A stretch of DNA of 61,616 nucleotides, filler included, from Stramenopiles sp. TOSAG23-3 (taxonomy: Eukaryota), in the NCBI GenBank assembly GCA_900128585.1. It is 6 parts of 6 records of this genome, joined end to end, with 100 filler letters (N's around TTAATTAATTAA, not from the genome) between each part and the next. Parts side by side here need not be neighbours in the genome. Positions count along the whole stretch, not along the records: positions 18,623 to 37,121 come from LT642426.1; 5 more parts are not named here. One strand, 5' to 3'. A program made the translations under genes and the position numbers. The stretch's first letter is position 1; every line of letters starts with the position of its first letter. The notes beneath the pieces were generated by a model that saw only the letters and a program-made list of their open reading frames with translations, had not been told where the DNA came from and did not search any database. Below are positions 1-54,010 of this stretch, in pieces.

Positions 1-234
1 CGGTAGTATAATAATCAGAAAAAAAAAAGAAATGTGATGAAATAATAATAATAAAAAATAGATCATCTCGATAGATATGCACTTCATCTCCAGCGATAAT
101 TTTGTTTCCTTGAGGAATTTCAAAAATTGTATGATTTGGGCCTGAAGGAGAGGGTGATTGTTGAATAGAAGAGGTGTGATTTTGGATGTCGGTGGAAAAG
201 CGTAGCGTGTTTGTACGAATTACATGCTTTTTCT

Positions 235-828
235 ATGAATTTCTTCCGACAGGCTGCTTTGCGGTACGATCGTCTTCTCCACCGCCGTCCTTTGCTTGTA
301 AAGAGCGTTACTTCTGGAGTGGTCGTTTGTGCGGCAGACGTAGGGATTCAGACGTTTTTTCCCGGTGCAATTGAGGGCGACGATGCCCTTGGTTCTAGTG
401 AAATTGGGGTGAAAAACAGCGCAACAAGTTTAGATTTAAAGAGAACTGCCGTAATTGGCATAGGATATGGTGCTCTTTGGTTTGCTCCTGTCCTGCACTT
501 TGTAACGACACGATGGGCAAAATTTCTGCCAAGCGTCAGCCTAGGCGCTCTAGCCTTTAAGTCTGTCGTTGATATGACCACCTCTTTCCCCATAAATTTA
601 AGTGTTATGATATCCCTCCAGTCCTACGCGAGGGAGGGAGGGAGGGCGCAACCGGTTCAATCTGTTCAAAAAAATCTTTGGCCATCATTGAAAGATGGAT
701 GGTGTTTTTGGCCGTTTATCTCAATGGTCATGTATGGGTCTGTCCCTCTGCACTACCGTGTTTTGTTTTTGAATTCAATGTCTTTGTTTTGGAATGGCTG
801 GATGATCGCACGATTTGAAAAACATTGA
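235..828 (+). CDS. Mpv17/PMP22 family membrane protein
   Basis: PLLVKSVTSG..ADVGIQ, DLKRT, W.FWP....Y..VPLHYRVLFLN...LFWN motifs; first in-frame ATG at 235 (track starts at TTG 211). Confidence 0.9.
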   Translation: MNFFRQAALRYDRLLHRRPLLVKSVTSGVVVCAADVGIQTFFPGAIEGDDALGSSEIGVKNSATSLDLKRTAVIGIGYGALWFAPVLHFVTTRWAKFLPSVSLGALAFKSVVDMTTSFPINLSVMISLQSYAREGGRAQPVQSVQKNLWPSLKDGWCFWPFISMVMYGSVPLHYRVLFLNSMSLFWNGWMIARFEKH

Positions 829-25800: not shown

Positions 25801-28800
25801 AATTTTGAAAAGAAAAGCTTCTGTAGTTGGTGGTAAACACACCCTTCCTTACCCACTCCATGTTGTAAAGGCAGATGCACTAACGCAGGGTCTTCCCTCT
25901 CAGAGGGGCACACCCATGACTGAAGCGGTACTTTGGGATCCTGCTCACTCATCTTATGTCATGTGGGTTACAAAGCTAACAACCATGCTGATCAACAATA
26001 GTGGCATGGGAGAAAACACGCTGTTGTCAGAATGTAAACATGTTTGCTCAATCGATCCTCTGTTGGCAGAAGCCATGTTCCCTTTGGCAATATATATGAC
26101 CCTAAAAGCGAGCAACGCCAGTGTTCGTGATCAAATTGGACAACGGTTAAGATCAATATTGCTGCAACACTGTGATAATAAGCAAGCTGTTTCTGTAAGC
26201 AGTAAACAGAGTAAATATCACCTAGAGCTCATGAAGAAGACTACAGCATTGGCGATTAATACTTTTGAATTTTTGCGAAAACAACATCTGCTATTGCATG
26301 TCGACACGCAGAACACCACTTTGTCTCGTCTTGGAAATCAAAGATCGCTAAGTTCGATGTCAAACCAGCATAGGGTTGATTTTATGCCTTCTTTAGGCTT
26401 CTTTTCAAACGAAAGCAATTCCATTTCATTTTTGGAGATTGCCAATGCCGCTATATTTTGTGACATGAACATTTTGGCTCTGCTGTACTCAGAACTGCAC
26501 TACAAGTATGAGTCTCGTACCGAAAGATACAAAATGCAAAAGTTGTCAATAGATGCTCTACACAGTATTACGGAATACGAAAATACGATATATGCTGTAA
26601 ATAAACGTCTGCAGGATGAAGATGCGATGAGTGCATCTCTATTTTTCTCCTTGGATGGTGCGCGCGACAGTCAAGGCGTGATAAACGAATACGAACCCCA
26701 GGCGAGAAATTCTGCATACAAATTAACACTTTGGGAACCGATCCTAGATGCAACCGAACGCAAGGATTATCCCCTGCTGAAACGCCTTTTGGAAAAAGAG
26801 AGGCAGCTGATAGTGCGTGGCACGGAATGCGTACAACCGTTAGACCGAGCATTTATGATTGGGCAAATGCAATCGTGTCATGTATTAGAGCTCGCATGCA
26901 TGCCCACTTGTCTCAAAGACAATTCTGTCAACGTGGAAAATGCTTCGCGAGTTTGGGGTAAAACCCTTTTTGAACTGGCGGAAGACAAACGGATTTTTCC
27001 ATTTGTCAACTTCTTTCTACGAAAGCGAGAACAGACGCTACTAGCCTGGAACGATCGAAAAATGCACTTAAGACACGTAATTAGTACTTCTGTGGCTGCG
27101 AGGCACTCGGAGAATTTGTATGTGGCAATAGATATAATATCTCGCTTGCGAAAAATTTTACAAATGCCCGATTATGCAGTTGAACTAGCATCAGAAAATC
27201 TTGAGACTTACGTCAAAGTAAGAATTGCTATTGAGGAAGGTTTGGTGTTTTCTGCACAGGGGAAAATGCTTCATAGCATTGCCTTTTGCAAACGTATTTT
27301 ACAGGTTTTAAAAAATATCACTGCCCTGAAAAGGCCCAACGCTGGTCGAGATGAAAGCAGCTGGGGGTTACACGATGGGTTAGAGAGCAATGTTTTGCGA
27401 TTTTTAGGGACTTGGACCAGTGAACTTCGTTCTGAGAATGCATCAAGTGTTATCAACAAATATTTTTCCCCTGCTTTGAAACATTTGCCTGACCATGCTG
27501 ATGCAGTATCAGCGCCTGATACACTAGAAGCAAACTATGCCGCTGGAAAGTATATGGATTCCTTATACAGCCAGTTGGTAGAAAGAAAGAACTCGCCAGA
27601 GTTTAAAGAAATGGCGGTGAACCGAAAACGAAATAGAGAGGAATACAGTAAATTAAAGAAAAGAGAAAAAATGATGAAGGCTCTTCGAACGAAGGAAGCC
27701 TCCGACCTTCGCAAACATATCGTAGCTCTCAAGAAAAACCTTGAACACGACGAAAATGAAATTAAACTGATGCAAGAGAATACCGATTTGTACCTCATCG
27801 GCGCTGCCAGGCACTATATCTCTTGCCTGGTCGTAGATCCCGACCGAAAATTTTATTTAAAGCGGAAAATGTTCGTTGTAGTCCGTTTGATCCATTTACT
27901 GTTTCAAAATCCCACCGTAGCACTCCTGCAAAACCTTATGCGTGAAAACGTGGAAAGGCTTGATATTGCTTCGTTTCTCCCATTTGTCCAACAACTGACG
28001 TCGCGTATCGATTCGGGGACCGGTAAGGACGTCGAAGGGGGTGGGGATAGGCTGTCGACCACATTGGAAGCGCTCCTTGTTAGGATGGTCGTTCACGATC
28101 CGCACAAATGCCTCCCATCGCTTATCTTACTGCAAAATGCCAAACTGAAGGATGACCAGATGACTGCAAAAGACGATGTGCGCCGCAACATTGCGAATTC
28201 TATTTTGGCACAGTACAAAGACAGCTCAGCGAATGGGGGTGCCCGAATTGCATCTTACGAAAATGTTATGGAAGCATACCGAAGACTTGCCCTGTGGATG
28301 CCACAAGAAACCAAGACCAGCTCTGGTCACAAGAAATTTTCACCACCACTCGGAAAGCAGATACATGTAAGCAAGTATGTTACCGATTGGACAAAACTCA
28401 TTCGAGCTGCAGACTTAAAGCAGGGCCTGGTGGCCTTGTGGGGAAACACATCAAATTTGACGGATTCCCCCACCGTACTGCTGCGGTTAAGTGACCAGTT
28501 CCAAGTGTCGAAGTCAGGTATCAGCCGCCCAAAGATTTTGTATGTGCACGGTACCGATGGCAAATCTCATGGACAGATTGTTAAAGGGGGAGACGATTTA
28601 AACAAAGATGAATTGATTCAACAAGTGTTTGCTTTGGTCAATTCGCTGCTTTACCAAGATCTGCAATGCAGGCGACGTGGACTGGCTATACGGAAGTATA
28701 AAATAGTCCCCCTGGCTGGGAAAACTGGTGTCATTGAAATGGTGCAGAACTCCGAGGCTTTGCGAGATTACTTGAGCGTGGCTCACAAACAATGGAACCC

Positions 28801-29677
28801 GAATGACTGGAGCCAAAACGACTGCTGGCAGGCGCTGAATACTGCGTACAAGTCATCCAGGAAGGACAAAGACCAGCACCAATCGACGCGAATCGAGGCT
28901 TACAAAAAGGTATGTAACAATTTTCGTCCCGCAATGTACAACGAAATGATCTACCGATCAAGTAACATGCAGAAGTGGTATAATTCTCGAATGGCGTATA
29001 TTCGCAGTGTAGCACTGACCTCAATCGTAGGTTACATACTTGGGTTAGGCGACCGGCACGCTTCGAACATTCTAATTGATAAAGGGTCCCATGAACTGGT
29101 TCACATCGACTTTGGCATAGCCTTTGAGGACGGGAAAATTTTGACAACGCCAGAAAAGGTCCCGTTTCGCTTGACTCGCGATTTGGTCGATGGTATGGGT
29201 ATTTCGGGGTACGAGGGTGTGTTTCAGCGCTGCTGTGAAGAGACGCTTAGACTTCTGAAAAATAACCAAGACGCGCTGCTGTTCATTTTGGACGCATTTG
29301 TACACAATCCTCTTAGCGAATGGAAAATTGACCCAATTAAATGGATGAAAAAACTGGAAGACAACGCGGAAAATAATACCCAACTGTTGGACGGGTCCGG
29401 GGCCGGGAGTGAGCAAGTGACCCCCGTTTTGACGAGAAATTTGTCCCGGGGTATTGCTTTTTCATCGCCGGGGTCTCCTGGTACGGATAGCCCAGACGCT
29501 AGCACGACAAAGAATAAACATGCTGAAAGAGCAATTGGGCGCATAAAACAGAAATTAAATGGTTATCATGATGGCAACTTGATGGGGATTGAGGGCCACG
29601 TAAAGAATTTAATTATGGAAGCAACGGACGTGGAAAACTTGGCGTTGATATTTCCGGGGTGGGGCCCATACTTTTGA
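19850..29677 (+). CDS. ATM: Serine/threonine kinase ATM/Tel1 (PIKK family)
   Basis: 3275 aa; GISRPK, KGGDDL, GYILGLGDRH..NIL, HIDFG, PEKVPFRLTRD, FQRCCEETL, FATC-type end LALIFPGWGPYF. Confidence 0.95.
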   Translation: MSALARQENEEVGGYLVKEVIQQIEGYKTKLKSNQNVGDRKKTLDECLRYFSSENQTGKKRLQCVDLISEYSQSDKVNRWQDLVEHVMFAARHDLKYLVKKKGKMQPSFNALAKIIGRCEGRKPGLYLERSAKEIFSHILFAMKTSLDSVTSQADAPAYLEVANKYEKILNIMLKSPVYCKALNWDKLKEFILMCFGKRTGEYCDSAKRRRVLKLSSRVLKNVLKAFCYDFEIKEIYRPDTGEEFVDDFCGIFESVSVYFQDARGHDRAAADEERDIGLSMLSILNVVIENGRVNTLDALCSYAKSPFLYACEHLVDNSSLHRLQALTFVRSVLRLTHRSTKWYIFQNMDFSVEHHFRNIYKSLVGEKFRVPLYQAQAGLHVKDFSGAVGHKNKPEIELQVNLIADIIYYGDIINAQTKSSENGKTPKYESLSGTKRKRENGATETKQNSHRQLLSIREHLLEGVYDRNHIAIYSLYRVMTLYPDLFLFQNVTDKSLRCGFSLKWFEDIMKALFDRLSSRSDVGRAGSARTVHTGEVYILACIQRSLYLLKYIESHVDNLSSPNEWGSFKEMKNMWVENFDSLLNIIRQDSHNIEHMGPVHQLACLIISNGMRYGSCGSEGDGLPIFGSGNMQTLWHLAFNRPYYHNMYVLKMVFSAIMNISLPSATTKTQIFDFVITFAASCKLFSSRELGVTDQYSGTSNLCTKAHLTYAISIVLCILLNKQAESGKIAGVGAVHDLANVHIDGCSLEAHSIERNPVMPRSIGMETKRQIDACVYEIAQCWWKHWNSCSSSGKPQVSKPERNRTAPSVVKQDRIDVGMSNKLFRWITSIKSNRFSNRVDDLSQPKHFGDHLRLTYITTAWVQTIMSLSAYSMIQLDKDYIKPVHAIVHDFIVSIGKRISSWTQSSLSLHRTDNTARVESQMIDALMCRFEFITRLQSGNEVHAANRSLLGKLIRKSRDCLLGDVAKTINVACMEYISYQDNPTSRFNMLNASSLHRRSPNEESMGIIDDDDEFEVEMAEHSSNTPNNGHSVHSNDSGNRIRFGEQCSLVELYKCPFINNTRRRIYGAEDVLYLDNFPIEWFLYTYGRMIIGSSISMDQKVSVAACVHKFAETWKHTSNIFSLASNKLLFFSSPSNFEIIQSVLRDAADNFIADDKKVRASKRPYTSISNTRLFFSLCSKIVKHILPSQGAAVTGLTGGNLAAMAGWKDLMKPIVAKVTKVLESAKDLSETRRDLPRDVRHTIQLFCGDLLTIGADEGNDALFEVIFELIESWIGADLDFEVLCLCGNSYSKALTGRDEEEQLEIYTRFVEISEDVTPQPSLTLPMRSTVLGQVAMALTSPALVPHALLAIVEMCIMFPNSHAAGGLAKFCVNALAKNCGYSDPESYKLVDGNIEFLLKGWINIFHPTCITDFPFKVFYPTVLTPTLASFLARHQKLLVSEIVLQGSGARVTKAEEGSGLEKGESTEAARDSVLNCLTQELNRNQDPPPHDVASLVTDALGIIFARNCELSSAQSSLVNTFLITSLGEDVFCKSVCRLREEIVLWILLSRSMTDSVLANISDGVYPNAFLGLQNILQNFGVPLSGCSDDEIFCSLPGVSVLNLVSYLKGYITSSSDIAQCMIGVNALYTLVKCIFGKHTHISHNGFSLSGNCLLLEFVHSILWHACDKSQDCWPLSIEILVAYTDTAIRAKKRDVLQSGLKKIIRVLLLPFVCADTSTENSGMVSSRVLSVAQQALEGLHRKLKASRKLSSAFRQSLPEFAIYTEKLQFYKEIKGRQVHSLHLGHCIANFLDVIRGAFHGENTRLTWHYAQFALKSIYNALLVWNNRGLGQPHGSTMTIAATMTEGLHSELTSDRDNVQYPPILSKFIKIISEQAHRVISMTLPIARKALQTACQCLGSIRMLNRHLNYESSASLSLNFLGQGQTIETIGVINLLKSQFKEYCKSHECIGSSFLTCYSTLMTMSIRQYEQNSGGNLSSNRSRKILKRKASVVGGKHTLPYPLHVVKADALTQGLPSQRGTPMTEAVLWDPAHSSYVMWVTKLTTMLINNSGMGENTLLSECKHVCSIDPLLAEAMFPLAIYMTLKASNASVRDQIGQRLRSILLQHCDNKQAVSVSSKQSKYHLELMKKTTALAINTFEFLRKQHLLLHVDTQNTTLSRLGNQRSLSSMSNQHRVDFMPSLGFFSNESNSISFLEIANAAIFCDMNILALLYSELHYKYESRTERYKMQKLSIDALHSITEYENTIYAVNKRLQDEDAMSASLFFSLDGARDSQGVINEYEPQARNSAYKLTLWEPILDATERKDYPLLKRLLEKERQLIVRGTECVQPLDRAFMIGQMQSCHVLELACMPTCLKDNSVNVENASRVWGKTLFELAEDKRIFPFVNFFLRKREQTLLAWNDRKMHLRHVISTSVAARHSENLYVAIDIISRLRKILQMPDYAVELASENLETYVKVRIAIEEGLVFSAQGKMLHSIAFCKRILQVLKNITALKRPNAGRDESSWGLHDGLESNVLRFLGTWTSELRSENASSVINKYFSPALKHLPDHADAVSAPDTLEANYAAGKYMDSLYSQLVERKNSPEFKEMAVNRKRNREEYSKLKKREKMMKALRTKEASDLRKHIVALKKNLEHDENEIKLMQENTDLYLIGAARHYISCLVVDPDRKFYLKRKMFVVVRLIHLLFQNPTVALLQNLMRENVERLDIASFLPFVQQLTSRIDSGTGKDVEGGGDRLSTTLEALLVRMVVHDPHKCLPSLILLQNAKLKDDQMTAKDDVRRNIANSILAQYKDSSANGGARIASYENVMEAYRRLALWMPQETKTSSGHKKFSPPLGKQIHVSKYVTDWTKLIRAADLKQGLVALWGNTSNLTDSPTVLLRLSDQFQVSKSGISRPKILYVHGTDGKSHGQIVKGGDDLNKDELIQQVFALVNSLLYQDLQCRRRGLAIRKYKIVPLAGKTGVIEMVQNSEALRDYLSVAHKQWNPNDWSQNDCWQALNTAYKSSRKDKDQHQSTRIEAYKKVCNNFRPAMYNEMIYRSSNMQKWYNSRMAYIRSVALTSIVGYILGLGDRHASNILIDKGSHELVHIDFGIAFEDGKILTTPEKVPFRLTRDLVDGMGISGYEGVFQRCCEETLRLLKNNQDALLFILDAFVHNPLSEWKIDPIKWMKKLEDNAENNTQLLDGSGAGSEQVTPVLTRNLSRGIAFSSPGSPGTDSPDASTTKNKHAERAIGRIKQKLNGYHDGNLMGIEGHVKNLIMEATDVENLALIFPGWGPYF

Positions 29678-29910: not shown

Positions 29911-31707
29911 TTACTGTACACAGCATCCCCCTGCAACTTCCTCCGAAGTTTCCCCGCGTGCTGCGATCTTGGTTCGTTTCCTTTTTTCGCGACCGTTTTG
30001 TGATTCTGCTGGTCGTTTAGACGATTTGGGGCCATACGTTCGTATTCGTATATAGTCTGAAAACAGTTGCATTGAAAGCATCTCTAGCGTTACCAGCGAT
30101 TTCCGCACTGTGACCTCCGTCTCGGTTTCATTCTCCTTTCGCGTCGACGGCACTAAACCCATCAACTCTGGAAAAGAATCGTCGTCTAAAAATTCAACAA
30201 ATAGATTTTCATCGTCAAGCCAGTAAACGCGTTTGCCTTTGTACGGTTTAAAGCAATTCATGATGTGGTGGGTCTGTGCTTCGAGAGGAAAACCCGTCAC
30301 ATGAAGCCAGTTTGACCGGTCAGGGTCCGGGTTCGCCCCTGCTAAATCGATGCACCGGCCGCCCATACGCATGAGGTACAGGCGGTTATGAAACGATGCA
30401 TCCAGGCTTTCCGACGCGCCCAAGGATCGAATGTCCCGGGGGGAGTAACCCTTTGCCAACATCAATTTCAGGAATACAACGCCCGTCATGTAGGAATCAT
30501 AACCAGCTTCGTGGTGGAATTCGGCCGTCTTGTACCTGTCAAATCCAGCGGAGAACTCCACGTTTACCTCGCTCGACTCGCGAAAAGCCTCGACGAAGTC
30601 TGGCTTCGCGTTCTCCAGGCCTTGCACCCCCGCGTACACATCCCCAAGGGCAGTAGATGTAAAGCACGGGTACAGTTTCTTGTCGTTGGACACGCAGTAT
30701 TTTGTGTCCACAATAGACGGAAACTTTGAGCGCAGCGAAGTTACGTATTTCTCGAACTCTAACGGAGGCGCTCCGCAAAACTTAGTGTACGTATGGGCGA
30801 GGTCAAGAAGACAGTTGTGCCCAACGACAGTCTTTTTGGCGTTGGAAAGGGCCTCGATTATCCTGGAAAAGCCGCTTTCTTCCTTCACTTTCTCCAACTC
30901 TTCTTTCATGTCCGCCCTGCGCTTTACTTCCAGAAACGCACTCTTGTCATCCACGGAGGAAAAGAACACTGCCCGTAAACTTTGGTTTCCATACCTAGAG
31001 GATTCGTTGTCCTCTGCAAACTTCTGCAGCAGGACTGTCTCAAATTCTTCCCCGCTGAACGCATCGTAGAGTATCCGGCGCCGAAAGCCATTGGTGGGCG
31101 GCAGCACGAAAAATGAATCGTGTGCAGAGTCTCCCTCAAACGCAAGTTTCGCCGTGCGAACGGAAGACAAGCAGTTGTCCACAAACTCTTGGTCCTGAAG
31201 CCGTTTGATCTCGACCTTTGAACGGCTAGATTCAGGAGTGGCGTCCTTCTCCATTTTTCGCCGAATTGCCGTCTCTTTTTCGAGTTTGTACTCAAGGGTG
31301 ATGTGTTTGACACCGTGGCGAAAGCACTTGTTGAAATCAAAATTGTGCTGGCATAAGAACGACACCGATGATGCCTGACACAGAAATCGTGCGTCGTCGC
31401 GTTCGTCGCCCGGGCGAAGGGAAGGTGGGTGCGGAAACAAGTACACGTTGTAAGGGCGGCACACGTAGCGATTGTTCGTCTGGTCGAACTTGAACGTGGT
31501 TATCCCGTACTGGAGCAACAAAAACTTCGCGGCTGAGTCCCGAACTGACAGGTAACGCGCTTGGTAATTATCACTAGGGGAGTTCTTTGTGCCGCTACTC
31601 GAGTTCAGCCCAGTCATTTCACAGTCTATTGCACAAAAGTCGCACCCGTCAATAGCAGCGCACATGCCTTCAGAAATTTCTGCAAAATTCAGTGACGTCA
31701 CGTCCAT
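29911..31707 (-). CDS. PARN: Poly(A)-specific ribonuclease (CAF1/DEDD family)
   Basis: AIDCEMTGL, FLCQASS..FL....FDFNK, R3H-like NGFRRRI, VVGHNCLLDL, HEAGYDSYMTG, C-terminal RRM-like segment. Confidence 0.93.
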   Translation of the reverse strand: MDVTSLNFAEISEGMCAAIDGCDFCAIDCEMTGLNSSSGTKNSPSDNYQARYLSVRDSAAKFLLLQYGITTFKFDQTNNRYVCRPYNVYLFPHPPSLRPGDERDDARFLCQASSVSFLCQHNFDFNKCFRHGVKHITLEYKLEKETAIRRKMEKDATPESSRSKVEIKRLQDQEFVDNCLSSVRTAKLAFEGDSAHDSFFVLPPTNGFRRRILYDAFSGEEFETVLLQKFAEDNESSRYGNQSLRAVFFSSVDDKSAFLEVKRRADMKEELEKVKEESGFSRIIEALSNAKKTVVGHNCLLDLAHTYTKFCGAPPLEFEKYVTSLRSKFPSIVDTKYCVSNDKKLYPCFTSTALGDVYAGVQGLENAKPDFVEAFRESSEVNVEFSAGFDRYKTAEFHHEAGYDSYMTGVVFLKLMLAKGYSPRDIRSLGASESLDASFHNRLYLMRMGGRCIDLAGANPDPDRSNWLHVTGFPLEAQTHHIMNCFKPYKGKRVYWLDDENLFVEFLDDDSFPELMGLVPSTRKENETETEVTVRKSLVTLEMLSMQLFSDYIRIRTYGPKSSKRPAESQNGREKRKRTKIAARGETSEEVAGGCCVQ

Positions 31708-32675
31708 CTTTTTGTAGACTATACCTCAGAATCACACCACTTTTCTTATAAGTACGACAAACAAATATAAACACCTTCGTTTAAATTCAATTTCAAAGGC
31801 ACATAAAAAATCAATAGGTTGGGTGAGGGTTGTGCTAAAAAGGATACTAAAAAAAGAGATTTGTTTTCTTTTTGTAATGTATACATATTATAATTATTAT
31901 TATGGTCGTGTTCCTCCTCCTGTATTTTTTGCCGTCTTTCGTCGGTGGTGGGTGGGTGGTGGGTGGTGGTGTGAGGTAAAAAAAAGAAGAAGAAAGAAAA
32001 AAAAATAGAAATCCAAGAAGAAGAAGAAGAAGAAGAAGAAAAAAAAAGAAAGAGAAGAAGAAAAAAAAAAGAAGAAATTCAAGAAAAAAAAAGAAGAAAT
32101 TTATTCTTCAAGAAAAAGAAATTCAAGAAGAGTTATATATTAAAGTCGTCTTCATTCTTCTTCTCTTCTGATGATCTTCTTCTCTGCTGTGACTAAAAAA
32201 TAAATAATAAGTATTAATATTATTAATGGCAATAAGAAGAAGAAGAAGAAGAAAAAAAAAAGTAGTAAGAAGAAGAAAGAGGAGAAGGAAGAAGAAGAAG
32301 AAAGAAAAAAAAAGTATTTTTATTATTTAAATTTAAATTATTATTATTATTATTCTAGATCTTCTATATTATTATTTTATAATTGTTTTGTTGTTTGTTT
32401 GTTGTTGTTTTGTTGTTGTTGTTTTGTTGTTGTTTTTTATTTTATTAATAATAATATAATAATAATATATTTTATATAAAATAGAGTGTGGTATATTAAA
32501 AATATATATAAATATTGTTGAATTTTTTTGGGTATAATGAATGTTTTCGTTTTCGTAAAAATAACTCTCCTCACACATTGTAACAGATTAAACATTCTTC
32601 GTTTATTATATATTTTTTAAAGAGTTGGTTTGGAATGAACGAATAAGGTCGGCGCGTTTTTCGTCTTTCAACGAG

Positions 32676-34886
32676 ATGGAGCTGTTGCCGCTGCACCAGG
32701 TGAACAACCCGGTGCTTAAAACAATGGGGCTGTACGGGGACCCCCACGCCGTTTTTGTACACCCCAACGCTATGATAGACCGAAACGTCGGGTGCAATGA
32801 TTTCGCTGTTTTGTGCTCCGAAGGGGCGTGCATGCTAAATTCAAAGTTTGTCCACGTAGAACTGTACACTGACACGTCGATGCCTGAAGGAAAAATATGC
32901 ACTCCGCAATGGATCATTGACTTGTTCCGTGAAAGCGACGAGCCGTCCACGAAAGCCTGGCTACTCCCGACTCGTACTATGCAGCTGCAAGACGCGGGAG
33001 AAATAGTGGTTACGTGCGTGAAGAGCAGCCCTCAGACAACGACCATGCCCGTGAGGGAAATAAAACATTTGGTAGATAATCTTTTTAGAGGAGGCAACAA
33101 GGTAGAGACGATCCCGCTCGGAGAGAACTCTGTAGTAGCTTGCCGTTACCAGACTGGCCTGTTCCTGTTTTCCGTCCTACCTTCGGGAGCGCCTCCTGCC
33201 AGCAGTGGCGGTGGGCCGTTTTTGTTCAGGTACGCCGCCGGCAGAACTAGGATTATTTACCAATTGCAAGCCATCGAGAAGGAACGCACAATAAAACAAC
33301 CTGTGGAGAACAACGAGGCCGTGGCCTTGGTGACAAACGTAGGCTCACTCCATCGCTGTTACCGAAACGTTTCCAATTTTATCAACAAACACATGGCCAT
33401 GAGAAAATCCGTTGAATCCGCGACACAAAATGGGACCGTGAATGCGGCGACGGAGATTGTTCCGCCGGTCGTACTGATCGAAGGGACTGTAGGTACTGGC
33501 AAAACGTGTATTTGCAAAGCCATTGAAAGTGGCAGGATGTCCCCCCAGTTCCACAGCGTTCCAATAGTGTACACAAACGCTCAGCACGATGTTTTCCAGT
33601 CGAAACGATCGTCGAACCAAAGCGGTGGTGGGCAGGCGGTAGTCACCCGGGAATGCGCTCTGCAGGTGGCGCAAGATAGGCTTCGGAAAGGCGAGGATTT
33701 GGTAGTGATCATCGACGATCTCGATGCAGTAGATACGAGCAGTTATGACGTGCAGAGTACCCTTTCGGCTTTGATCGAGGTGCTGAAACAGCGCCCGTCT
33801 TCATACCTTCTGCTGACGGCGAAGGGCAGGGGCGCCCTTCACAAATCCTTCGGCTCGCGGGGGCTTGTTGGTTACCACTTTGCAATTCCAGACATGGACA
33901 GTGAAGACCGCAAAGCCGCTCTGTGGCACTTGGCAGCGTTGGAAAAGCATGCGCACGATAGAGGGGACTTAGCATTCACAGCGAAAGAATGCACGAAAGG
34001 CTTCGTACTCCGGGATTTGGTCAACGTGGTGTCGAACGCAGGGCTAAAGGCGACCTCGCTGGCGCACACGGCGAAGCGCATCAAACCGCTTCGACTGGAG
34101 GCAGTCCAGACGGTTCGCCCAAAAGCGACATTTGAAAACATTGGGGGATACGAAAGCATCAAAATGCGAATGTTGCAGATATGCAGGATAAACCTGGCGA
34201 AAGATCGCAATGGCCGGAGTGCCCTTGCCGATTCCCTGGAGACGGAGTCGGGAATATTGATGCATGGCCCAAGTGGTTGCGGCAAAACCATGCTCGTCGA
34301 GGCCCTTGCAAACGAGACAAACAGCCACTTTGTTTCTGTCCGGGCCCCAGATTTGCTGAGCCCCTATTTGGGGCAGAGCGAAGCGAAACTGCGGAATTTA
34401 TTTGCCACTGTTCGGTCTGCCGAGTCGTCCATCGTGTTCATTGATGAAATCGATGCCATTGTTCCAGCTCGAACAAATTTTTCTAGTGGGAACAGTAGTG
34501 GTGGGGTCGGCGAAAGACTGCTTGCCACGCTGTTGAACGAGATTGATGGAATTGCACTTGGTGGGCGGACGGTAGTTGTCGGCGCCACGAGCCGTTTGGA
34601 AGCCGTCGACCCTGCCCTCCGGCGGCCAGGGCGGTTGGGAGCATGCATCCACGTCCCTTACCCAGACGACAAGAACAAACGCGCAATTTCCAAGTTGTAC
34701 GCTGTCAAGTACCAATTGCATGAGCTGGATGACCAGGAAGTGTACGGTGCAGGGAGCTGCGCCGATGTTGCGCGATTGTACAAAGACAAGGCAATGGAAA
34801 GCGTTCGGCGCCGCATAGAAGCGCTGCCCGCGGCATCGACGACCACCGTGCCAATTCGTGCGCCTCCTAAAGACGACGACGAATAA
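32676..34886 (+). CDS. Type II AAA+ ATPase, AFG2/SPATA5-like (CDC48 clade)
   Basis: Degenerate D1 (GTVGTGKT, IIDDLD); D2 with GPSGCGKT, FIDEID, LLNEIDG, DPALRRPGR; first in-frame ATG at 32676. Confidence 0.88.
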   Translation: MELLPLHQVNNPVLKTMGLYGDPHAVFVHPNAMIDRNVGCNDFAVLCSEGACMLNSKFVHVELYTDTSMPEGKICTPQWIIDLFRESDEPSTKAWLLPTRTMQLQDAGEIVVTCVKSSPQTTTMPVREIKHLVDNLFRGGNKVETIPLGENSVVACRYQTGLFLFSVLPSGAPPASSGGGPFLFRYAAGRTRIIYQLQAIEKERTIKQPVENNEAVALVTNVGSLHRCYRNVSNFINKHMAMRKSVESATQNGTVNAATEIVPPVVLIEGTVGTGKTCICKAIESGRMSPQFHSVPIVYTNAQHDVFQSKRSSNQSGGGQAVVTRECALQVAQDRLRKGEDLVVIIDDLDAVDTSSYDVQSTLSALIEVLKQRPSSYLLLTAKGRGALHKSFGSRGLVGYHFAIPDMDSEDRKAALWHLAALEKHAHDRGDLAFTAKECTKGFVLRDLVNVVSNAGLKATSLAHTAKRIKPLRLEAVQTVRPKATFENIGGYESIKMRMLQICRINLAKDRNGRSALADSLETESGILMHGPSGCGKTMLVEALANETNSHFVSVRAPDLLSPYLGQSEAKLRNLFATVRSAESSIVFIDEIDAIVPARTNFSSGNSSGGVGERLLATLLNEIDGIALGGRTVVVGATSRLEAVDPALRRPGRLGACIHVPYPDDKNKRAISKLYAVKYQLHELDDQEVYGAGSCADVARLYKDKAMESVRRRIEALPAASTTTVPIRAPPKDDDE

Positions 34887-35244
34887 GAAAGGGGTGGTGG
34901 TGGGTGGTCATCCGCCAAGACCAACAGTGTACATACAGATCAATACCTTTACAAAATTAAAACAAATTATTCGCCCCCTGAATTTAGATCATATATATAT
35001 CAAGAGTGTATATTTTGGTTTTTTCAAGAGTCTTAAAACATACTATATCATTAGTTTTTTTTATTTATCAAGATATAATTTTTTCCCCTTTCATATCGTA
35101 TAATTTCAGTAAGTCATAAAACTTTCAAATAAACATTTCTTTCGCGTTACTTGCACACTTGCACGGACCCGGCGTTTGTTTTTGCAACAACCACAGCAGT
35201 CGTGCACGCATGCAAACGTGCCCTATGCAATATCCTTCCTTGCT

Positions 35245-36249
35245 TCACAGGGCTGTGACTACTTTGAGGATGCGCCTGGACGCGGTAAACTTGCCGTTGA
35301 ATCGCTTGATTCCATCCCCGCGCAATCGCTTGGAGTGCACGTCAAAGTACTCTTGCAGGTGTTCCCTGCTTTCTACGCGGTAACTAACGATGTACCGGAA
35401 CTTGGGGCAATACTTTTTCTCCACCGTTTCAATGAATTGAGAAACTTCTGCAAAAATCGCATCGATTGGTTTGTTCGCAACGAACCGTTGGACGATGCCC
35501 TTTGCTCGAAACAAATTGATGACGGGCATGGTGGAGGCCTGGTAGGTCTTGAAACGTTTCTTGATGCTCTCAATGTTGTCGTCGGCGCGGCCACTAGTTT
35601 GCCCGCGCTCCAAAAGTCGCTTCTCCATAACCTCTTCTGGGCAGTCAAAGAACAGCACGCCGGCTACGTTGGCCGCGTCCCCCACGTGCTCGAACCAGCC
35701 CCGGACGTTCTCCGTGTCACGCGGGAAGCCATCGATGAGAAACTTGGTCTTCTCGCTAGCGTCCATGGCCTTCTTCAGCAGTTTCACCGTGATCTCCACG
35801 GGAACGATTTTCCCCTCCTTAATGTATTGGTTTATCAACGCCCCGTTCTTCGAGTTCGGGTTCTTTCGCTCGGCGCGAAGGCAGTCCCCTGCGGATATGT
35901 GCTGGTACCCGAACTTTTCGACAATTTTCGAGCACTGGGTGCCTTTGCCCGCCCCTGGCCCTCCCAGTACAAACAGGACCGTCGGCAGGTCCGGCTGCTC
36001 GTCTTCTGCTATCGTGGCGTCGATGAAGCCTGGGAGCTGCAACAGTTCTTTGCAGTGCGGCTCCAGCCATTCATGGTATTCCTTCTTCACTGATTTTTGC
36101 ACTTCAAGGTTCACTTCGTATGTAACGTGCCCCGACTTCGAGGCGCCCCCCCCGCCCCCACTACCAAAGCAGTACTGCAACCCTGCACCGACCAGTGCCC
36201 CCGCGGCAACGGCCACTCCAAGGCTTGTTGTGCTATTGTTACTGCTCAT
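35245..36249 (-). CDS. CMPK1: UMP-CMP kinase embedded in a DUF4286-like domain, with an N-terminal hydrophobic anchor
   Basis: [44 protein letters not shown]; flanks YEVNLEV..WL..H...LLQLPGF and [12 protein letters not shown]....[18 protein letters not shown]. Confidence 0.92.
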
Positions 36250-36964
36250 TCTTCTTTCTGTGTGTTTCCGTGTCCGTATGTTCCACCGTTTGTATAAATT
36301 CTTAATAGACCTTCGACCATATACACATATATATGTCGATTTCGATTTCGACTATGAGCCCATCCATGCCCACATGAAATAACCTAATATATATATTTTA
36401 ATATAATAAAATAAAAAATACTACAAAAATAAAGGGGAAAGGAGTCGTTATATTATTATTGTACATTATACCCCTCCCTCTCCATCCATCATCATTCATC
36501 ATCATCCCAAGCTTAAAAGAAAGGAGAAAAAGGAAGGAAGGAGAAGGAAGGAAGGAAGCTAAGAAGAAGAAGAAGAAGGAATTGAATATTATTAAAAGAA
36601 GAATAATATTGAATGAATGAATGAATGGGTGGAATCGATTTGATAATAATGATATAAATGATAGGACACTTTTAAATACAAATAAATGTATAGTCAGTCG
36701 TTCTGTTTAGTTCTTCTATTTCTTTCTTCTAAAAATAATAATTTAAATAAAATAATAAAATCGTATTTTTAATTTTTAACTTTTAAGTTTGCCTTCATCT
36801 ATATTGTATAGTTATAATAATAATTATGTAATCTAATAGATTTATCTACGATCATCTACACTATTGAACTATATCTAATTATAATGCTTTATCTGAGTTC
36901 AGCTGCATTGTCCTATTTAATAATTAGTATTATTATAATTAGCTTGTCAATCAATTTTTTCCCT

Positions 36965-37121
36965 CTTTCTCCTTCTCTTCTTCTTCTTTCTTCTTCTTTC
37001 TTCTACTTCTTTCTTCTTCGTCTTTCTTCTCTCTCTTCTTCTTTCTTCTTCTTCTTCTTCTTCTTCTTCTTCTTCTTCTTCTTCTTTCTTCTTCTTCTTC
37101 TTCTTCTTCTTTCTTCTTCTT
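36965..37121. repeat. (TTC)n microsatellite at contig end
   Basis: Direct inspection. Confidence 0.95.
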
Positions 37122-37221
37122 NNNNNNNNNNNNNNNNNNNNNNNNNNNNNNNNNNNNNNNNNNNNTTAATTAATTAANNNNNNNNNNNNNNNNNNNNNNN
37201 NNNNNNNNNNNNNNNNNNNNN
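37122..37221. other. Artificial contig linker
   Basis: N44-TTAATTAATTAA-N44. Confidence 0.98.
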
Positions 37222-37334: not shown

Positions 37335-38543
37335 TCACTCATCGCCTTCATCATCTTCTTCATCTTCTTCTTCTTCCGCGAAGGAACCAAGAGAGGAGAC
37401 GCCAGAGTCCATCGCCCCAGTGCCTTTGGTTGTATGCGCTGTCGTCATCCGTTCAAACTCCGTCAAACGTCGTTTTTGACGGGTAATTACGACGGACTGT
37501 TCCAAAATTCCTCCTGCAATTGCCAAGAAAATATTCAACAGGTCGATATCTTGGTCTGTAAAAACTTCGCCAACTTCCTTGTTGATCAATTGGATAACAC
37601 CAATGACGCGGTCACCGCCGGCAGACTTGATTGGCAATACTAGAACTTGTTTGGTGCGGAACTTGTTTTTCAAATCAAACTCTTGGTTGAACCTTGAATC
37701 TTTGTACGCATCTCGGATATTCAGTGGTTCCCCGGTGGTCGCCACCGCCCCCGCCAATCCGCTGGTCATAGGGATCCGAATTTCAACGGCGCCCTGCATA
37801 GAATAAATCTCCTGGCGACCGTGATCAATCATGAAGACCGTGCAGCGCTGGGCATGAACGAGAGCAGGGGTACGATTCGTTAACGTAAAAATGAGAGACG
37901 CTGTCCCCATGCCAGAATTGACCGACTTGATAATGTCCAACAGAGCATTAATGCGTTCCTGGGTTGCACGCTGCATGTCCAATATCATGTAATTCTGCAA
38001 AATCACGCCTAGCTGAGAGCGCAAGTGGTCCAGTATGAAAATATCTTTCTCAACAAAAGGGACATACACCCCCTCTTTCGGCCCTTTCTTGTTAATGCAC
38101 TGCAAGACTGCCTCCGTGACACCGTTCGCGTCCGTAATCGGACAGCACAGGATTGATGTCGTTTTGTACCCAGTTGCGACGTCCGCTTCTTGGTTGAAAC
38201 GATCATCTTTGTACGCGTCAGGAATATTAACAGTTTCCCCAGACATGTAAACGTGCCCGACAATACCCGTGTTCCACGGAATGCGGATATCCAGGGCGTC
38301 GTCGTTCGTCGCGTGCTTTATGACCAAATGTTCGTTCTCTTTGTCAACGATGAACACTGTCGCCCGGTCACAGTTTAACATGCTACATGCTTCTTCAACT
38401 ACGATCGTGGTAGCATCACGCAAAGACTTCGCCTCATTAATGTGGCGTATCATGTTTAACATACCAACCAAGTGCTCAGACTGTATGCCGACCTTCTCCA
38501 AGTCCTTGGCCTCTTGCTTGTATCGGTTTGCAACGTTTCCCAT
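37335..38543 (-). CDS. Tandem GAF domain protein (PDE-type GAFs, no catalytic domain)
   Basis: Two copies of G..G.V...GE..NI.DAY.D.RFNQE.D......T...L..PI...VxQxINK...F...D; acidic tail. Confidence 0.92.
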   Translation of the reverse strand: MGNVANRYKQEAKDLEKVGIQSEHLVGMLNMIRHINEAKSLRDATTIVVEEACSMLNCDRATVFIVDKENEHLVIKHATNDDALDIRIPWNTGIVGHVYMSGETVNIPDAYKDDRFNQEADVATGYKTTSILCCPITDANGVTEAVLQCINKKGPKEGVYVPFVEKDIFILDHLRSQLGVILQNYMILDMQRATQERINALLDIIKSVNSGMGTASLIFTLTNRTPALVHAQRCTVFMIDHGRQEIYSMQGAVEIRIPMTSGLAGAVATTGEPLNIRDAYKDSRFNQEFDLKNKFRTKQVLVLPIKSAGGDRVIGVIQLINKEVGEVFTDQDIDLLNIFLAIAGGILEQSVVITRQKRRLTEFERMTTAHTTKGTGAMDSGVSSLGSFAEEEEDEEDDEGDE

Positions 38544-52906: not shown

Positions 52907-54010
52907 ATGAGTTCATTGAAGGGAGTTTTAAAATTGAACAAAGAGCAGTACAATGATGATCAAGAGAGGAAACGGAGGCACACCTTTGCAATCGGGGATT
53001 TGGTGAGCATCGCGCCGCACACCAAGCGCCCTAAATCGGGATGGAAGAGTCGAAAGGGAGAAGTGGGAACAGTTGTCACAATTTTATCACACTTGGACGA
53101 CCCTGCCGTTTACATCGAGTTCCCCAGGTTTCAGGACAAATTTAGAACCCACGAGCTGGTGCACGTTAGAGACGTCAATCGCAAAGAGTATTTTGAGACG
53201 GCCAAGTTTTTGCACCGAGCAATGCGGTACGAAGATTGTCTGGGAAACGTAGAGGCCGGGGCGTGCATCGTCCAGGGAAAAGACCTCTCAGTTTGTGAGC
53301 GAAGCATGCTGTCCAAGGCTTTCAAAGCCGTCTTTAGAACGTACGAAAAAAGCGCAAATGCCTTGCTCGCCGTTGCCGCGAAGACGTACGAGGAGGGGAA
53401 GCGCAGGGTTATTGCAAAGTACCTGTTGGAGGTTACCGAGGAATACATGGCCCGTATTGAAGAGTCGATATTCTTGATCGAAAAAGTGCTTCTCCCGAAC
53501 GCCCACAGGACGCACAATTCAGTGAACATTGTGTTTTTGTACAAGATAAAAGGAGATATGTTGCGGCGGATTCACAAGTTCTACCCCCCGGGCAATCCCC
53601 GGGGAAAGATACAGAGGCGGTCGCACAAAGCTTACATGTACGGTCTGCGACTTGCGAAAAGGGGGGAAAAGAGTTTGTGCGGGCCATTAGACTGCGCAAA
53701 TGCGATTCGGCTCAGTATTGCATTGAATTTTTCAGTATACCTGCACGACATTGAGAAATCCCCTCAGCGCGCCATCGGGCACACGAAGAAAGCTTTTGAC
53801 GACGCCACGTCAACGGTGGAGTTTTTGCCAGAGCGCGAGTACAAAAATAGCATGGCGATCATGTCTCAGATGAGGGATAATTTAGACAGGTGGACGAACC
53901 AGATTGTTCAAGAGAGCTCGTTTCAAACTGTGCTTTGGAGCAACGATGCAACAGGGGACCGTAAAGTTGGTGTGCTCGAAGGAGGAGACAGTGGGTTTGT
54001 CTGGGAGTAG
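52907..54010 (+). CDS. Divergent 14-3-3-like protein with an N-terminal KOW/SH3-like extension
   Basis: DLSVCERSMLS.AFK, KIKGD..R, IRLSIALNFS, KKAFDDA, YKNSMAIM.QMRDNL..W; N-terminal FAIGDLV...GEVGTV. Confidence 0.88.
   Translation: MSSLKGVLKLNKEQYNDDQERKRRHTFAIGDLVSIAPHTKRPKSGWKSRKGEVGTVVTILSHLDDPAVYIEFPRFQDKFRTHELVHVRDVNRKEYFETAKFLHRAMRYEDCLGNVEAGACIVQGKDLSVCERSMLSKAFKAVFRTYEKSANALLAVAAKTYEEGKRRVIAKYLLEVTEEYMARIEESIFLIEKVLLPNAHRTHNSVNIVFLYKIKGDMLRRIHKFYPPGNPRGKIQRRSHKAYMYGLRLAKRGEKSLCGPLDCANAIRLSIALNFSVYLHDIEKSPQRAIGHTKKAFDDATSTVEFLPEREYKNSMAIMSQMRDNLDRWTNQIVQESSFQTVLWSNDATGDRKVGVLEGGDSGFVWE

What the first reader, a model, noticed from the sequence alone, without database searches (positions are those of the whole stretch)
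35245..36249. UMP-CMP kinase inserted into the middle of a DUF4286-like domain
Seen: a complete UMP-CMP kinase (about aa 89-277) lies between [41 protein letters not shown] (aa 42-82) and [44 protein letters not shown] (about aa 285-329). From family knowledge, these two flanks joined together read as one DUF4286 protein (small, mostly bacterial, predicted dimeric alpha/beta barrel: YEVN..WL..H....L.LPGF...Y....L..Y....A..LR.DG..RF). This would be a domain insertion into an internal loop, not an end-to-end fusion. A hydrophobic N-terminus ([17 protein letters not shown]) and a Gly linker precede it. Inference: a membrane-anchored nucleotide kinase that is dimerised or regulated by its host domain, which would also hint at a function for DUF4286.
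Basis: partly seen in the sequence, partly recalled or inferred. Interest (0 to 1): 0.85.

Follow-up and report, generated by a model that had tools for sequence, protein, structure and literature searches.

The report
UMP-CMP kinase nested inside DUF4286
A marine protist gene encodes a complete pyrimidine-nucleotide kinase inserted into a loop of a small domain of unknown function, a conserved layout that gives a first functional lead on that domain.

Summary
ORF 35245-36249 (-) is one uninterrupted 334-aa frame. Residues 89-273 are a complete UMP-CMP kinase (TIGR01359 261.5 bits, cut-off 207.6; human 1tev E 3.5e-67). Residues 40-87 and 275-332 match the two complementary halves of DUF4286 (Pfam 52.1 bits, cut-off 25.8). 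With the kinase removed in a script, the flanks score as one domain (129.5 bits; best shuffle 6.5). AlphaFold2 co-folds them into one ferredoxin-like domain that superposes on solved ABM-type domains (Z 12.5-13.1, 92-98 residues). A 107-aa stand-alone relative has a 17-residue loop where the kinase sits. The layout is conserved in 15 proteins. A haptophyte-type group of 22 keeps it with a degenerate C half. RNA-derived contigs from seven studies hold the sequence, so it is not an assembly artefact. A homodimer prediction passes its controls (0.34 against 0.00), with the interface only in the flanks. The DUF4286 signature is kept at 22 of 23 columns. Membrane tethering, dimerisation and any regulatory role are inferred, not shown. 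My literature searches found no description of this layout. Verdict: a real nested-domain enzyme, a new variant of known kinds, of moderate interest.

The parts
35245..36249 (-). Whole ORF, 334 aa plus stop; single exon, no N inside
36172..36222 (-). aa 10-26, Gly/Ala-rich hydrophobic segment (putative membrane anchor or targeting signal)
   Evidence: Kyte-Doolittle 15-residue maximum 2.09 at aa 10-24; a segment of at least 1.5 is present in 13 of 15 members with both halves
36145..36165 (-). aa 29-35, GSGGGGG linker; pLDDT under 50 for aa 1-37
35989..36132 (-). aa 40-87, N half of DUF4286 (strand 42-51, helix 52-70, strand 75-82)
   Evidence: Pfam profile 2-43 of 100; own profile 3-50, 53.3 bits; AF2 secondary structure
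35428..35988 (-). aa 88-274, complete UMP-CMP kinase (guest domain); P-loop GGPGAGKGT at aa 96-104 = 35938-35964
35254..35427 (-). aa 275-332, C half of DUF4286 (strand 283-292, helix 295-316, strand 321-329)
   Evidence: Pfam profile 53-100 of 100; own profile 49-105, 62.2 bits; AF2

Best explanation
The gene encodes a nested two-domain enzyme. The host is a roughly 100-residue DUF4286 domain with a ferredoxin-like fold (two strand-helix-strand halves) of the ABM / dimeric alpha+beta-barrel type. Its variable loop between strands 2 and 3 carries a complete, catalytically intact short-LID UMP-CMP kinase. A 7-residue linker joins the kinase on the N side. On the C side the kinase's last helix runs almost directly into strand 3. 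Shown: the architecture, its conservation, and the intact catalytic motifs. Predicted: the two halves re-form one domain, and that domain pairs with a second copy through strands 2 and 4, giving a homodimer with two outward-facing kinases. Inferred: the Gly/Ala-rich N-terminal segment tethers the dimer to an organellar membrane, most likely mitochondrial. There it would make UDP and CDP from UMP and CMP with ATP. Because the host keeps almost the whole polar signature of stand-alone DUF4286 (Y44 E45 N47 W61 H65 Y290 Y301 R310 R325 R326), it probably still performs the family's own function. That function is unknown; I guess binding of an anionic ligand. It would then be more than a passive scaffold.
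For: Kinase: TIGR01359 261.5 bits, above the cut-off of 207.6, while AK1 (TIGR01360) scores 181.7, below its cut-off of 284.1. The best solved relatives are human, Dictyostelium and yeast UMP-CMP kinases, E 3.5e-67 to 2e-55, covering residues 3-192 of the 196-residue human chain. 1ukz_A gives Z 24.6, rmsd 2.2, 188 aligned, 50% identity. K102, R125, R177, R215, R221 and R232 are invariant in 22 of 22 aligned members.

Host: Pfam DUF4286 52.1 bits in two stretches. The halves are complementary. The joined flanks give one domain of 129.5 bits. The stand-alone relative P0152 is 73% identical to aa 288-328 and 41% identical to aa 46-84, with 17 residues in place of the kinase.

Co-fold: AF2 mean pLDDT 81.4, pTM 0.71, with strand-helix-strand on either side of the kinase. 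Six solved ABM-type chains align 92-98 residues at rmsd 1.7-2.1, Z 12.5-13.1, over model range 39/41..331/334.

Conservation: 15 of 121 examined proteins have both halves around a kinase domain and 22 have the N half. The 14 non-degenerate members form one kinase clade with SH-aLRT support 86-88.

Dimer: median ipSAE 0.34, best of 3 controls 0.00. The mark was reached by 21 of 30 solved homo-pairs and 0 of 23 single chains; for eukaryotes, 17 of 29 and 0 of 30. The runs share at least 80% of contacts and partner pLDDT is at least 81. Interface residues are 42-43, 63-70, 77-85, 287, 295 and 326-334, all in the flanks.

Signature: 22 of 23 columns that are at least 85% conserved in 40 stand-alone proteins are kept in the window protein.

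Expression: 11 runs on record as RNA, from 7 studies, hold 59-87% of the sampled words of 35100-36400.
Against: No coordinates were available, so strand pairing between the halves is read from superpositions, not from contacts. The dimer pass may come from the model's memory of the many solved ABM dimers: on eukaryotes only 1 of 7 proteins without an older solved relative reached the mark, and the alignment was not used. The score of 0.34 is only just above the mark of 0.32. No targeting predictor was run. The window protein has no basic residue within 12 aa after the hydrophobic segment, which is atypical for a signal anchor. P0039 and P0061 lack the segment. Orthologues with 30-58-residue basic presequences (P0052-P0059) may be sorted differently. 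No junction-spanning reads were examined. Neighbourhoods of 51 prokaryotic DUF4286 genes show no NMP kinase (0 of 51), so the nucleotide link is not general to the family. In the P0019/P0024/P0028 sub-clade several signature residues are lost (H65N in two of the three; Y290C; R310S in two of the three; R325A/K). The host's own function is therefore dispensable in some members.
Confidence: 0.7

Rival explanations
1. Natural allosteric switch. DUF4286 is a small-molecule sensor. Because the kinase hangs from both of its ends in the strand 2-3 loop, ligand binding or dimerisation in the host would change the hinge motions of the kinase and so its activity.
For: The polar DUF4286 signature is retained at 22 of 23 columns. 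The C-side junction is tight: helix 262-280 leads into strand 283. A paralogue-like member (P0252) keeps the host signature while its kinase has lost the R177, R221 and R232 equivalents. This suggests that the host carries a function of its own.
Against: No ligand is known for any DUF4286. No solved member was found by profile search (best E 4.1). Nothing here measures coupling between the two domains.
Confidence: 0.2
2. Bifunctional enzyme. DUF4286 is itself a catalyst, as many ABM-fold proteins are (cofactor-free oxygenases or isomerases), acting on a metabolite related to the kinase's pathway. The insertion would simply co-localise two activities.
For: The fold matches include the monooxygenases SnoaB 3kg0 (Z 12.8) and RslO4 7bio (Z 12.8). 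Invariant His, Tyr and Arg residues are present. Relatives are fused end to end to other enzymes: a HAD phosphatase, a GST and a P-loop NTPase.
Against: Sequence identity to the ABM enzymes is 8-16%. A shared fold shows no function. The fusion partners are chemically unrelated to each other.
Confidence: 0.15
3. Domain-swapped assembly. The N half of one chain pairs with the C half of another chain, so the ferredoxin-like domains form only between subunits.
For: The 187-residue insert separates the halves. The dimer prediction places strand 2 of one copy against strand 4 of the other.
Against: The AF2 monomer builds the domain within one chain, with pLDDT 85-93 in the flanks. The 7-residue and 2-residue linkers suffice for intrachain closure.
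Confidence: 0.08
4. The N-terminal hydrophobic segment is a cleaved signal or transit sequence. The mature protein would then be soluble inside an organelle or the secretory pathway, not membrane-anchored.
For: Orthologues P0052-P0059 carry 30-58 residues rich in basic and poor in acidic residues before the segment. Haptophyte-type members carry 11-16 such residues in most cases. A UMP-CMP kinase was found in a diatom silica-deposition-vesicle fraction and set aside as a contaminant (PMC9894196, passage read). Its identity with this family is unknown.
Against: The segment with its G-x-x-x-G-like pattern and following Tyr is conserved as sequence among P0001, P0005, P0019, P0024, P0028 and P0046. 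That is more typical of a retained helix than of a cleaved signal.
Confidence: 0.3
5. Assembly or gene-model artefact joining a kinase gene to fragments of a DUF4286 gene.
For: None was found. An N run lies about 870 bases upstream.
Against: The frame is one uninterrupted open reading frame. The same collinear layout occurs in 14 further proteins from independent sources, including transcriptome-derived sets (eukprot, MMETSP), and in 22 haptophyte-type proteins. RNA-derived contigs from 7 studies hold most of the stretch.
Confidence: 0.01

Closest known systems
Eukaryotic UMP-CMP kinases (human CMPK1 1tev, Dictyostelium 1qf9/1uke, yeast URA6 1ukz)
   Same: The guest domain aligns end to end: residues 89-273 against 3-192 of the 196-residue human chain, E 3.5e-67. 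To 1ukz it is 50% identical, Z 24.6. It has the P-loop, the NMP-site and short-LID arginines, and a TIGR01359 score above the cut-off.
   Different: Those enzymes are free-standing chains of about 195 residues. From recall, they work as monomers. Here both termini of the kinase are held in a loop of another domain, and an N-terminal hydrophobic segment is added.
Stand-alone DUF4286 (PF14114) proteins of about 100 aa, mostly from bacteria and marine archaea
   Same: All profile positions are covered and 22 of 23 signature columns are kept. P0152 is 73% and 41% identical to the two flanks.
   Different: Those proteins are contiguous, with a short variable loop of about 14-30 alignment columns between strands 2 and 3. 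Here that loop holds a 187-residue enzyme. No function and no solved structure is known for the family.
End-to-end fusions of the same DUF4286 sub-group: HAD Cof-type phosphatase-DUF4286 (P0153), P-loop NTPase-DUF4286 (P0155), DUF4286-GST (P0162), DUF4286-DUF3667 (P0189 and others)
   Same: The DUF4286 module is closely related, 46-52% identical to P0152 for the first three (49% for P0162), and includes the HAxRLRGDG motif in P0153 and P0155.
   Different: In these the module is intact at one end of the chain. Only the kinase proteins interrupt it.
ABM / dimeric alpha+beta-barrel domains (TT1380 1iuj, SnoaB 3kg0, RslO4 7bio, 4npo, 3fgv, WhiE-ORFI 9lmn)
   Same: The flanks of the model superpose on them: Z 12.5-13.1, rmsd 1.7-2.1, 92-98 residues aligned. 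The predicted homodimer uses the sheet edges.
   Different: Identity is 8-16%, with no sequence-level match. No evidence of oxygenase chemistry. None of these entries carries an inserted domain, judging by their chain lengths of 94-106 residues, except 9lmn_B at 362.
Haptophyte-type nested UMP-CMP kinases (22 proteins, including Emiliania huxleyi EMIHUDRAFT_429140 = P0114)
   Same: The N flank, kinase and C flank come in the same order. The N half matches the DUF4286 profile with hhalign probability 98.7. AF2 gives strand-helix-strand on both sides of the kinase.
   Different: The C half alone is barely detectable (probability 23, E 9e-4) and has lost the Tyr/Arg signature. A conserved C-terminal tail (...LKAYDLDALRAFD) is added. 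Pfam annotates no DUF4286 in them.

Membership tests
UMP-CMP kinase family (TIGR01359; Pfam ADK PF00406) | Score above the curated family cut-off | tested here: met
   TIGR01359 261.5 bits against 207.6. PF00406 149.3 against 26.8. AK1 model TIGR01360 181.7, below its 284.1.
UMP-CMP kinase family (TIGR01359; Pfam ADK PF00406) | P-loop GxxGxGK and the catalytic Lys/Arg set of NMP kinases (the list of residues is recalled from the Dictyostelium and yeast enzymes) | tested here: met
   GGPGAGKGT at aa 96-104. K102, R125, R177, R215, R221 and R232 are invariant in 22 of 22 aligned members.
UMP-CMP kinase family (TIGR01359; Pfam ADK PF00406) | Short LID, full-length fold | tested here: met
   The alignment to 1tev has a single 5-residue gap, none of it in the LID. 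1ukz_A aligns 188 of 196 residues, Z 24.6.
UMP-CMP kinase family (TIGR01359; Pfam ADK PF00406) | Phosphorylates UMP/CMP in preference to AMP | not testable with these tools
   Needs an enzyme assay.
DUF4286 (PF14114) | Score above Pfam's gathering threshold and coverage of the whole profile | tested here: met
   52.1 bits against 25.8, in two stretches that cover profile positions 2-43 and 53-100 of 100. Own profile 117.4 bits, positions 3-50 and 49-105 of 111.
DUF4286 (PF14114) | Family signature residues (YEVN, W-L-x-x-H, G-F, Y, L-x-x-Y, R-x-x-G, F, R-R) | tested here: met
   22 of 23 columns that are at least 85% conserved in 40 stand-alone members are identical in the window protein. The exception is Ala to Ser at 306.
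DUF4286 (PF14114) | A single contiguous domain of about 100 residues | tested here: not met
   It is interrupted by 187 residues between profile positions about 50 and 49-53. This is the feature that makes it a variant.
ABM / dimeric alpha+beta-barrel superfamily | Ferredoxin-like strand-helix-strand x2 fold superposable on solved members | tested here: met
   On a predicted model: 4npo_A Z 13.1 (97 of 102 aligned, rmsd 2.0), 1iuj_B 12.9, 3kg0_A 12.8, 7bio_A 12.8, 9lmn_B 12.6, 3fgv_B 12.5.
ABM / dimeric alpha+beta-barrel superfamily | Homodimer through the beta-sheets | tested here: met
   Prediction only: ipSAE 0.34 against a best control of 0.00, with the interface in strands 77-85 and 326-334. 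It may reflect memory of solved ABM dimers.
ABM / dimeric alpha+beta-barrel superfamily | Sequence-level relationship to a solved member | tested here: not met
   A profile of 40 DUF4286 proteins against all PDB chains gave a best E of 4.1, to an unrelated peroxygenase.

The most novel reading that the evidence does not exclude
DUF4286 is a sensor for a small anionic metabolite, possibly a nucleotide or phospho-metabolite. On this reading the nested protein is a naturally evolved domain-insertion switch: ligand binding or dimerisation in the 100-residue host gates a UMP-CMP kinase held at both ends in its central loop. Pyrimidine nucleotide supply at an organellar membrane would thus be tied to that signal. 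The degenerate-kinase member (P0252) and the haptophyte forms with a degenerate host half would be the two ways such a switch can decay.
Probability: 0.15. Interest if true: 0.8.

Novelty: new variant of a known kind. Interest (0 to 1): 0.5.

Why it matters
NMP kinases are textbook single-domain enzymes whose catalysis depends on large hinge motions. Here one is fixed at both termini inside a loop of a domain half its size, and the layout is conserved across two algal lineages. That makes it an unusual natural test case for how domain insertion affects enzyme dynamics, oligomeric state and regulation.

It also gives the first experimental handle on DUF4286. A search with one member found 733 cluster representatives at E up to 0.001. 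No literature on its function turned up: searches for 'DUF4286' (3 papers, of which only one passage, in PMC9425974, was read) and 'PF14114' (1 paper, listing only) gave nothing on function.

In protists this module is repeatedly joined to enzymes of phosphate and nucleotide chemistry. For algal biology it points to a membrane-tethered, probably organellar, step in pyrimidine nucleotide supply.

Tried and rejected
Expression rests on shares of sampled words only.
- No whole genome is held for the window. I therefore could not ask whether the organism also has a plain UMP-CMP kinase or a stand-alone DUF4286.
- The third homologous-protein search (C flank, near lengths) returned only the protein's own cluster.
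- The search for related loci with the 40-row alignment failed for lack of a conserved stretch. A single protein was used instead.
- Gene neighbourhoods of 51 prokaryotic DUF4286 loci gave no recurrent partner beyond lineage-specific synteny, and no NMP kinase.
- For the haptophyte model, the structural search list of 50 was filled by kinases, so no ABM-type match was seen. This is inconclusive, not negative.
- My guess that the N-terminal part of P0155 is a cytidylate kinase was not supported. It has only weak P-loop matches (E 0.1 or worse to FtsY).
- P0157 (1210 aa, 12 stretches) is a repeat protein that matches a short helix motif. I took it as a false positive by eye.
- The AU test on all 171 kinase rows did not finish in 288 s. 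It was run on 74 rows instead: the 62-tip clade plus the 12 nearest outgroup rows, with P0252 left out for its 2.5-unit branch.
- Organism: the Atlas's nearest kinase clusters are mostly Bacillariophyta, at scores of 0.87, which is only a lead. I did not name a species.
- Supplements of PMC9894196 could not be seen. The UMP-CMP kinase removed from that proteome could not be compared with this family.

Full report
**What is there.** The window is eukaryotic. Its other ORFs include a 3275-aa PI3/PI4-kinase-related protein with a FATC domain, a CAF1-family ribonuclease, a 14-3-3 protein and a protein kinase. Coding stretches are G+C-richer than the A+T-rich spacers. ORF 35245..36249 on the minus strand is one uninterrupted frame of 334 aa. 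It holds no N; the nearest N run and a (GAA)n tract lie about 870 bases upstream.

**The kinase.**
- Pfam places ADK at aa 94-251 (E 1.2e-43).
- NCBIfam's UMP-CMP kinase model TIGR01359 scores 261.5 bits, above its cut-off of 207.6. The AK1 model scores 181.7, below its cut-off of 284.1.
- Among solved structures, the best sequence matches are human UMP-CMP kinase (1tev, E 3.5e-67; query 89-273 on chain 3-192 of 196), then the Dictyostelium and yeast enzymes, ahead of AK1.
- In the fold search, 1ukz_A gives Z 24.6, rmsd 2.2, 188 residues aligned and 50% identity.
- The P-loop (aa 96-104) and K102, R125, R177, R215, R221 and R232 are invariant in all 22 aligned family members.

The guest is therefore a complete and apparently active short-LID UMP-CMP kinase. 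Which residues are catalytic is recalled from the literature on the Dictyostelium and yeast enzymes.

**The flanks are one DUF4286.**
- Pfam DUF4286 scores 52.1 bits (cut-off 25.8) in two stretches.
- Scanned alone, aa 36-90 match profile positions 2-43 of 100 (23 bits). Aa 278-334 match positions 53-100 (34.8 bits).
- A profile I built from 40 stand-alone relatives (alignment A2) gives the same picture more strongly. Aa 40-87 match positions 3-50 (53.3 bits) and aa 275-332 match positions 49-105 (62.2 bits), for a total of 117.4 bits. Intact DUF4286 domains in end-to-end fusions score 124-131 bits.
- With the kinase removed inside a script, the flanks score as a single domain of 129.5 bits over positions 3-105. 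Of 200 shuffles, 192 gave a score, the best being 6.5 bits.
- A natural uninserted comparator exists. P0152 (107 aa) is 73% identical to aa 288-328 and 41% identical to aa 46-84, with 17 residues where the kinase sits.
- In the stand-alone family this loop between strands 2 and 3 is the most variable and gappy region. It is a plausible permissive site for an insertion.

**Co-folding.** AlphaFold2 with a 22-sequence alignment gives mean pLDDT 81.4 and pTM 0.71. The elements are strand 42-51, helix 52-70 and strand 75-82, then the kinase, then strand 283-292, helix 295-316 and strand 321-329. Residues 1-37 are disordered.

An exhaustive structural comparison with 48,161 chains finds two kinds of match. 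One is the kinases. The other is six ABM-type domains of about 100 residues that align 92-98 residues over model range 39/41 to 331/334:
- 4npo_A: Z 13.1, rmsd 2.0, 97 of 102 residues aligned
- 1iuj_B: Z 12.9
- 3kg0_A (SnoaB): Z 12.8
- 7bio_A: Z 12.8
- 9lmn_B: Z 12.6
- 3fgv_B: Z 12.5

The flanks together have about 106 residues, so these superpositions must use both halves. No coordinates were available to me, so this is the only direct evidence of co-folding. DUF4286 itself has no solved member detectable by sequence (best E 4.1).

**Conservation and origin.** Among the best 120 homologues, 14 clusters (one of them the protein's own) carry both PF00406 and PF14114. With my profiles I examined 121 proteins holding 175 kinase domains. 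Fifteen kinase domains are flanked by both halves, 22 by the N half only, and 138 by neither.

The 22 include an Emiliania huxleyi protein and MMETSP haptophyte transcripts. Profile-profile comparison with DUF4286 gives:
- N flank: probability 98.7 (E 2.2e-16)
- C flank alone: probability 23 (E 9e-4, but collinear with the right half)
- both joined: probability 99.0 (E 2.4e-18, 105 columns)

AF2 of one member (P0099; pLDDT 78.8, pTM 0.66) again shows strand-helix-strand on both sides of the kinase. The structural search list for that model was filled by kinases, so it is inconclusive for the host.

On a kinase-domain tree the 14 typical nested kinases form one clade (SH-aLRT 86-88) and the 22 haptophyte-type ones form another (100). 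A tree holding all 36 together is not rejected (AU p 0.356; 74 rows, P0252 left out). That result does not show a single origin.

**Not an artefact.** The layout recurs in proteins from independent assemblies and transcriptomes. Eleven runs on record as RNA, from seven studies, hold 59-87% of the sampled words of 35100-36400. The attempt to lay reads gave nothing, so junction-spanning reads were not seen.

**How it probably works.** A homodimer prediction for residues 38-334 passes its mark.
- Median ipSAE is 0.34 and the best of three controls is 0.00.
- The mark was reached by 21 of 30 solved homo-pairs and 0 of 23 single chains. For eukaryotes the counts are 17 of 29 and 0 of 30.
- The runs agree in at least 80% of contacts, and partner pLDDT is at least 81.
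- All confident interface residues lie in the flanks (42-43, 63-70, 77-85, 287, 295, 326-334). Strand 2 of one copy lies against strand 4 of the other.
- This is the usual way ABM domains pair (recalled), so the pass may reflect memory of solved dimers. On eukaryotes only 1 of 7 proteins without an older solved relative passed.

Of the 23 columns that are at least 85% conserved in 40 stand-alone DUF4286 proteins, the window protein keeps 22. These include the polar Y44, E45, N47, W61, H65, Y290, Y301, R310, R325 and R326. This argues that the host still does whatever DUF4286 does and is not merely a scaffold. The P0019/P0024/P0028 sub-clade has lost several of these residues.

The N-terminal segment (aa 10-24, hydropathy 2.09) recurs in 13 of the 15 nested proteins at 1.5 or more. 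Some orthologues precede it with 30-58 residues rich in basic and poor in acidic residues. I read this as an organellar, most likely mitochondrial, membrane tether. No targeting predictor was available, and the window protein lacks basic residues just after the segment.

**Hints on DUF4286.** A full scan of 1.84 billion representatives with P0152 finds 733 proteins at E up to 0.001. Most of the 150 listed are about 100 aa long. The nearest large clusters are bacterial. 51 loci come from diverse bacteria and marine archaea.

The relatives closest to the nested flanks include four kinds of end-to-end fusion:
- a Cof-type HAD phosphatase (P0153)
- an unassigned P-loop NTPase (P0155)
- a GST (P0162)
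- DUF3667, in bacteria-like proteins

Prokaryotic neighbourhoods show no NMP kinase in 0 of 51 loci. In one archaeal lineage ftsY lies directly upstream and a nucleoside diphosphate kinase about 2.4 kb downstream (10 loci). That is most simply lineage synteny.

**Literature.** The searches were 'DUF4286' (3 papers; one passage read, which links the family to bamD in flavobacteria), 'PF14114' (1 paper, listing only), 'domain insertion' with 'UMP-CMP kinase' (0 papers), and 'adenylate kinase' with 'dimeric alpha-beta barrel' (0 papers). None turned up a description of this architecture. Source annotations call the protein simply 'UMP-CMP kinase'. The co-occurrence of the two Pfam families is visible in precomputed annotation, so the novelty lies in recognising and characterising the nesting.

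**Verdict.** This is a real, conserved nested-domain UMP-CMP kinase. It is a new variant of known kinds and of moderate interest.

Noticed in passing
P0252 (324 aa; found): A divergent member with the same nested layout, collinear with the window protein at 35% identity over 293 residues. It keeps the DUF4286 signature, but its kinase scores below the TIGR01359 cut-off (116.7 against 207.6) and has lost the equivalents of R177, R221 and R232. It is probably a dead kinase inside an intact host.
   Followed up: partly
P0153, P0155, P0156, P0162, P0189, P0190, P0211, P0216, P0217: The DUF4286 module occurs in end-to-end fusions: after a Cof-type HAD phosphatase, after an unassigned P-loop NTPase, before a GST, and before DUF3667.
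   Followed up: partly
Loci L012, L021, L022, L030-L032 and related archaeal loci: In marine archaeal MAGs (Poseidoniia / 'Methanobacteriota' titles) DUF4286 lies directly downstream of ftsY on the same strand (9 loci). It is next to an FAD-dependent oxidoreductase (11 loci), with L7Ae, nucleoside diphosphate kinase (10 loci, about 2.4 kb away) and a PurQ-like amidotransferase downstream.
   Followed up: partly
Proteins (P0003-P0121): Many of the closest plain relatives are tandem kinases. Of the 119 proteins that gave a kinase domain, 52 have two and 2 have three.
   Followed up: no
window about 36985-37221: A long (GAA)n-type microsatellite is followed by two N runs separated by TTAATTAATTAA. 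This is a scaffold gap in the spacer between the kinase gene and the GAF gene.
   Followed up: no
window 37335-38543 (-), 32625-34886 (+), 29911-31707 (-), 19850-29677 (+), 52907-54010 (+): Neighbouring genes: a tandem-GAF protein with an acidic tail, a two-module AAA+ ATPase, a CAF1/PARN-like deadenylase with an RNA-binding domain, a 3275-aa PIKK with FATC, and a 14-3-3 protein with an N-terminal extension of about 98 residues. There is no sign of a functional link to the kinase.
   Followed up: partly
PMC9894196, section 5 (passage read): A UMP-CMP kinase co-purified with the valve silica-deposition-vesicle fraction of a diatom and was co-expressed with the sin1 cluster. It was removed as an apparent contaminant. 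If it is the membrane-tethered nested form, that call might deserve a second look. The supplements were not available.
   Followed up: no
window 35176-36093 (+) and 35549-36382 (+): Two long ORFs (305 and 277 aa) lie antisense to the kinase gene. They are low in complexity and have no support; they are most likely shadows of the G+C-rich coding strand.
   Followed up: no
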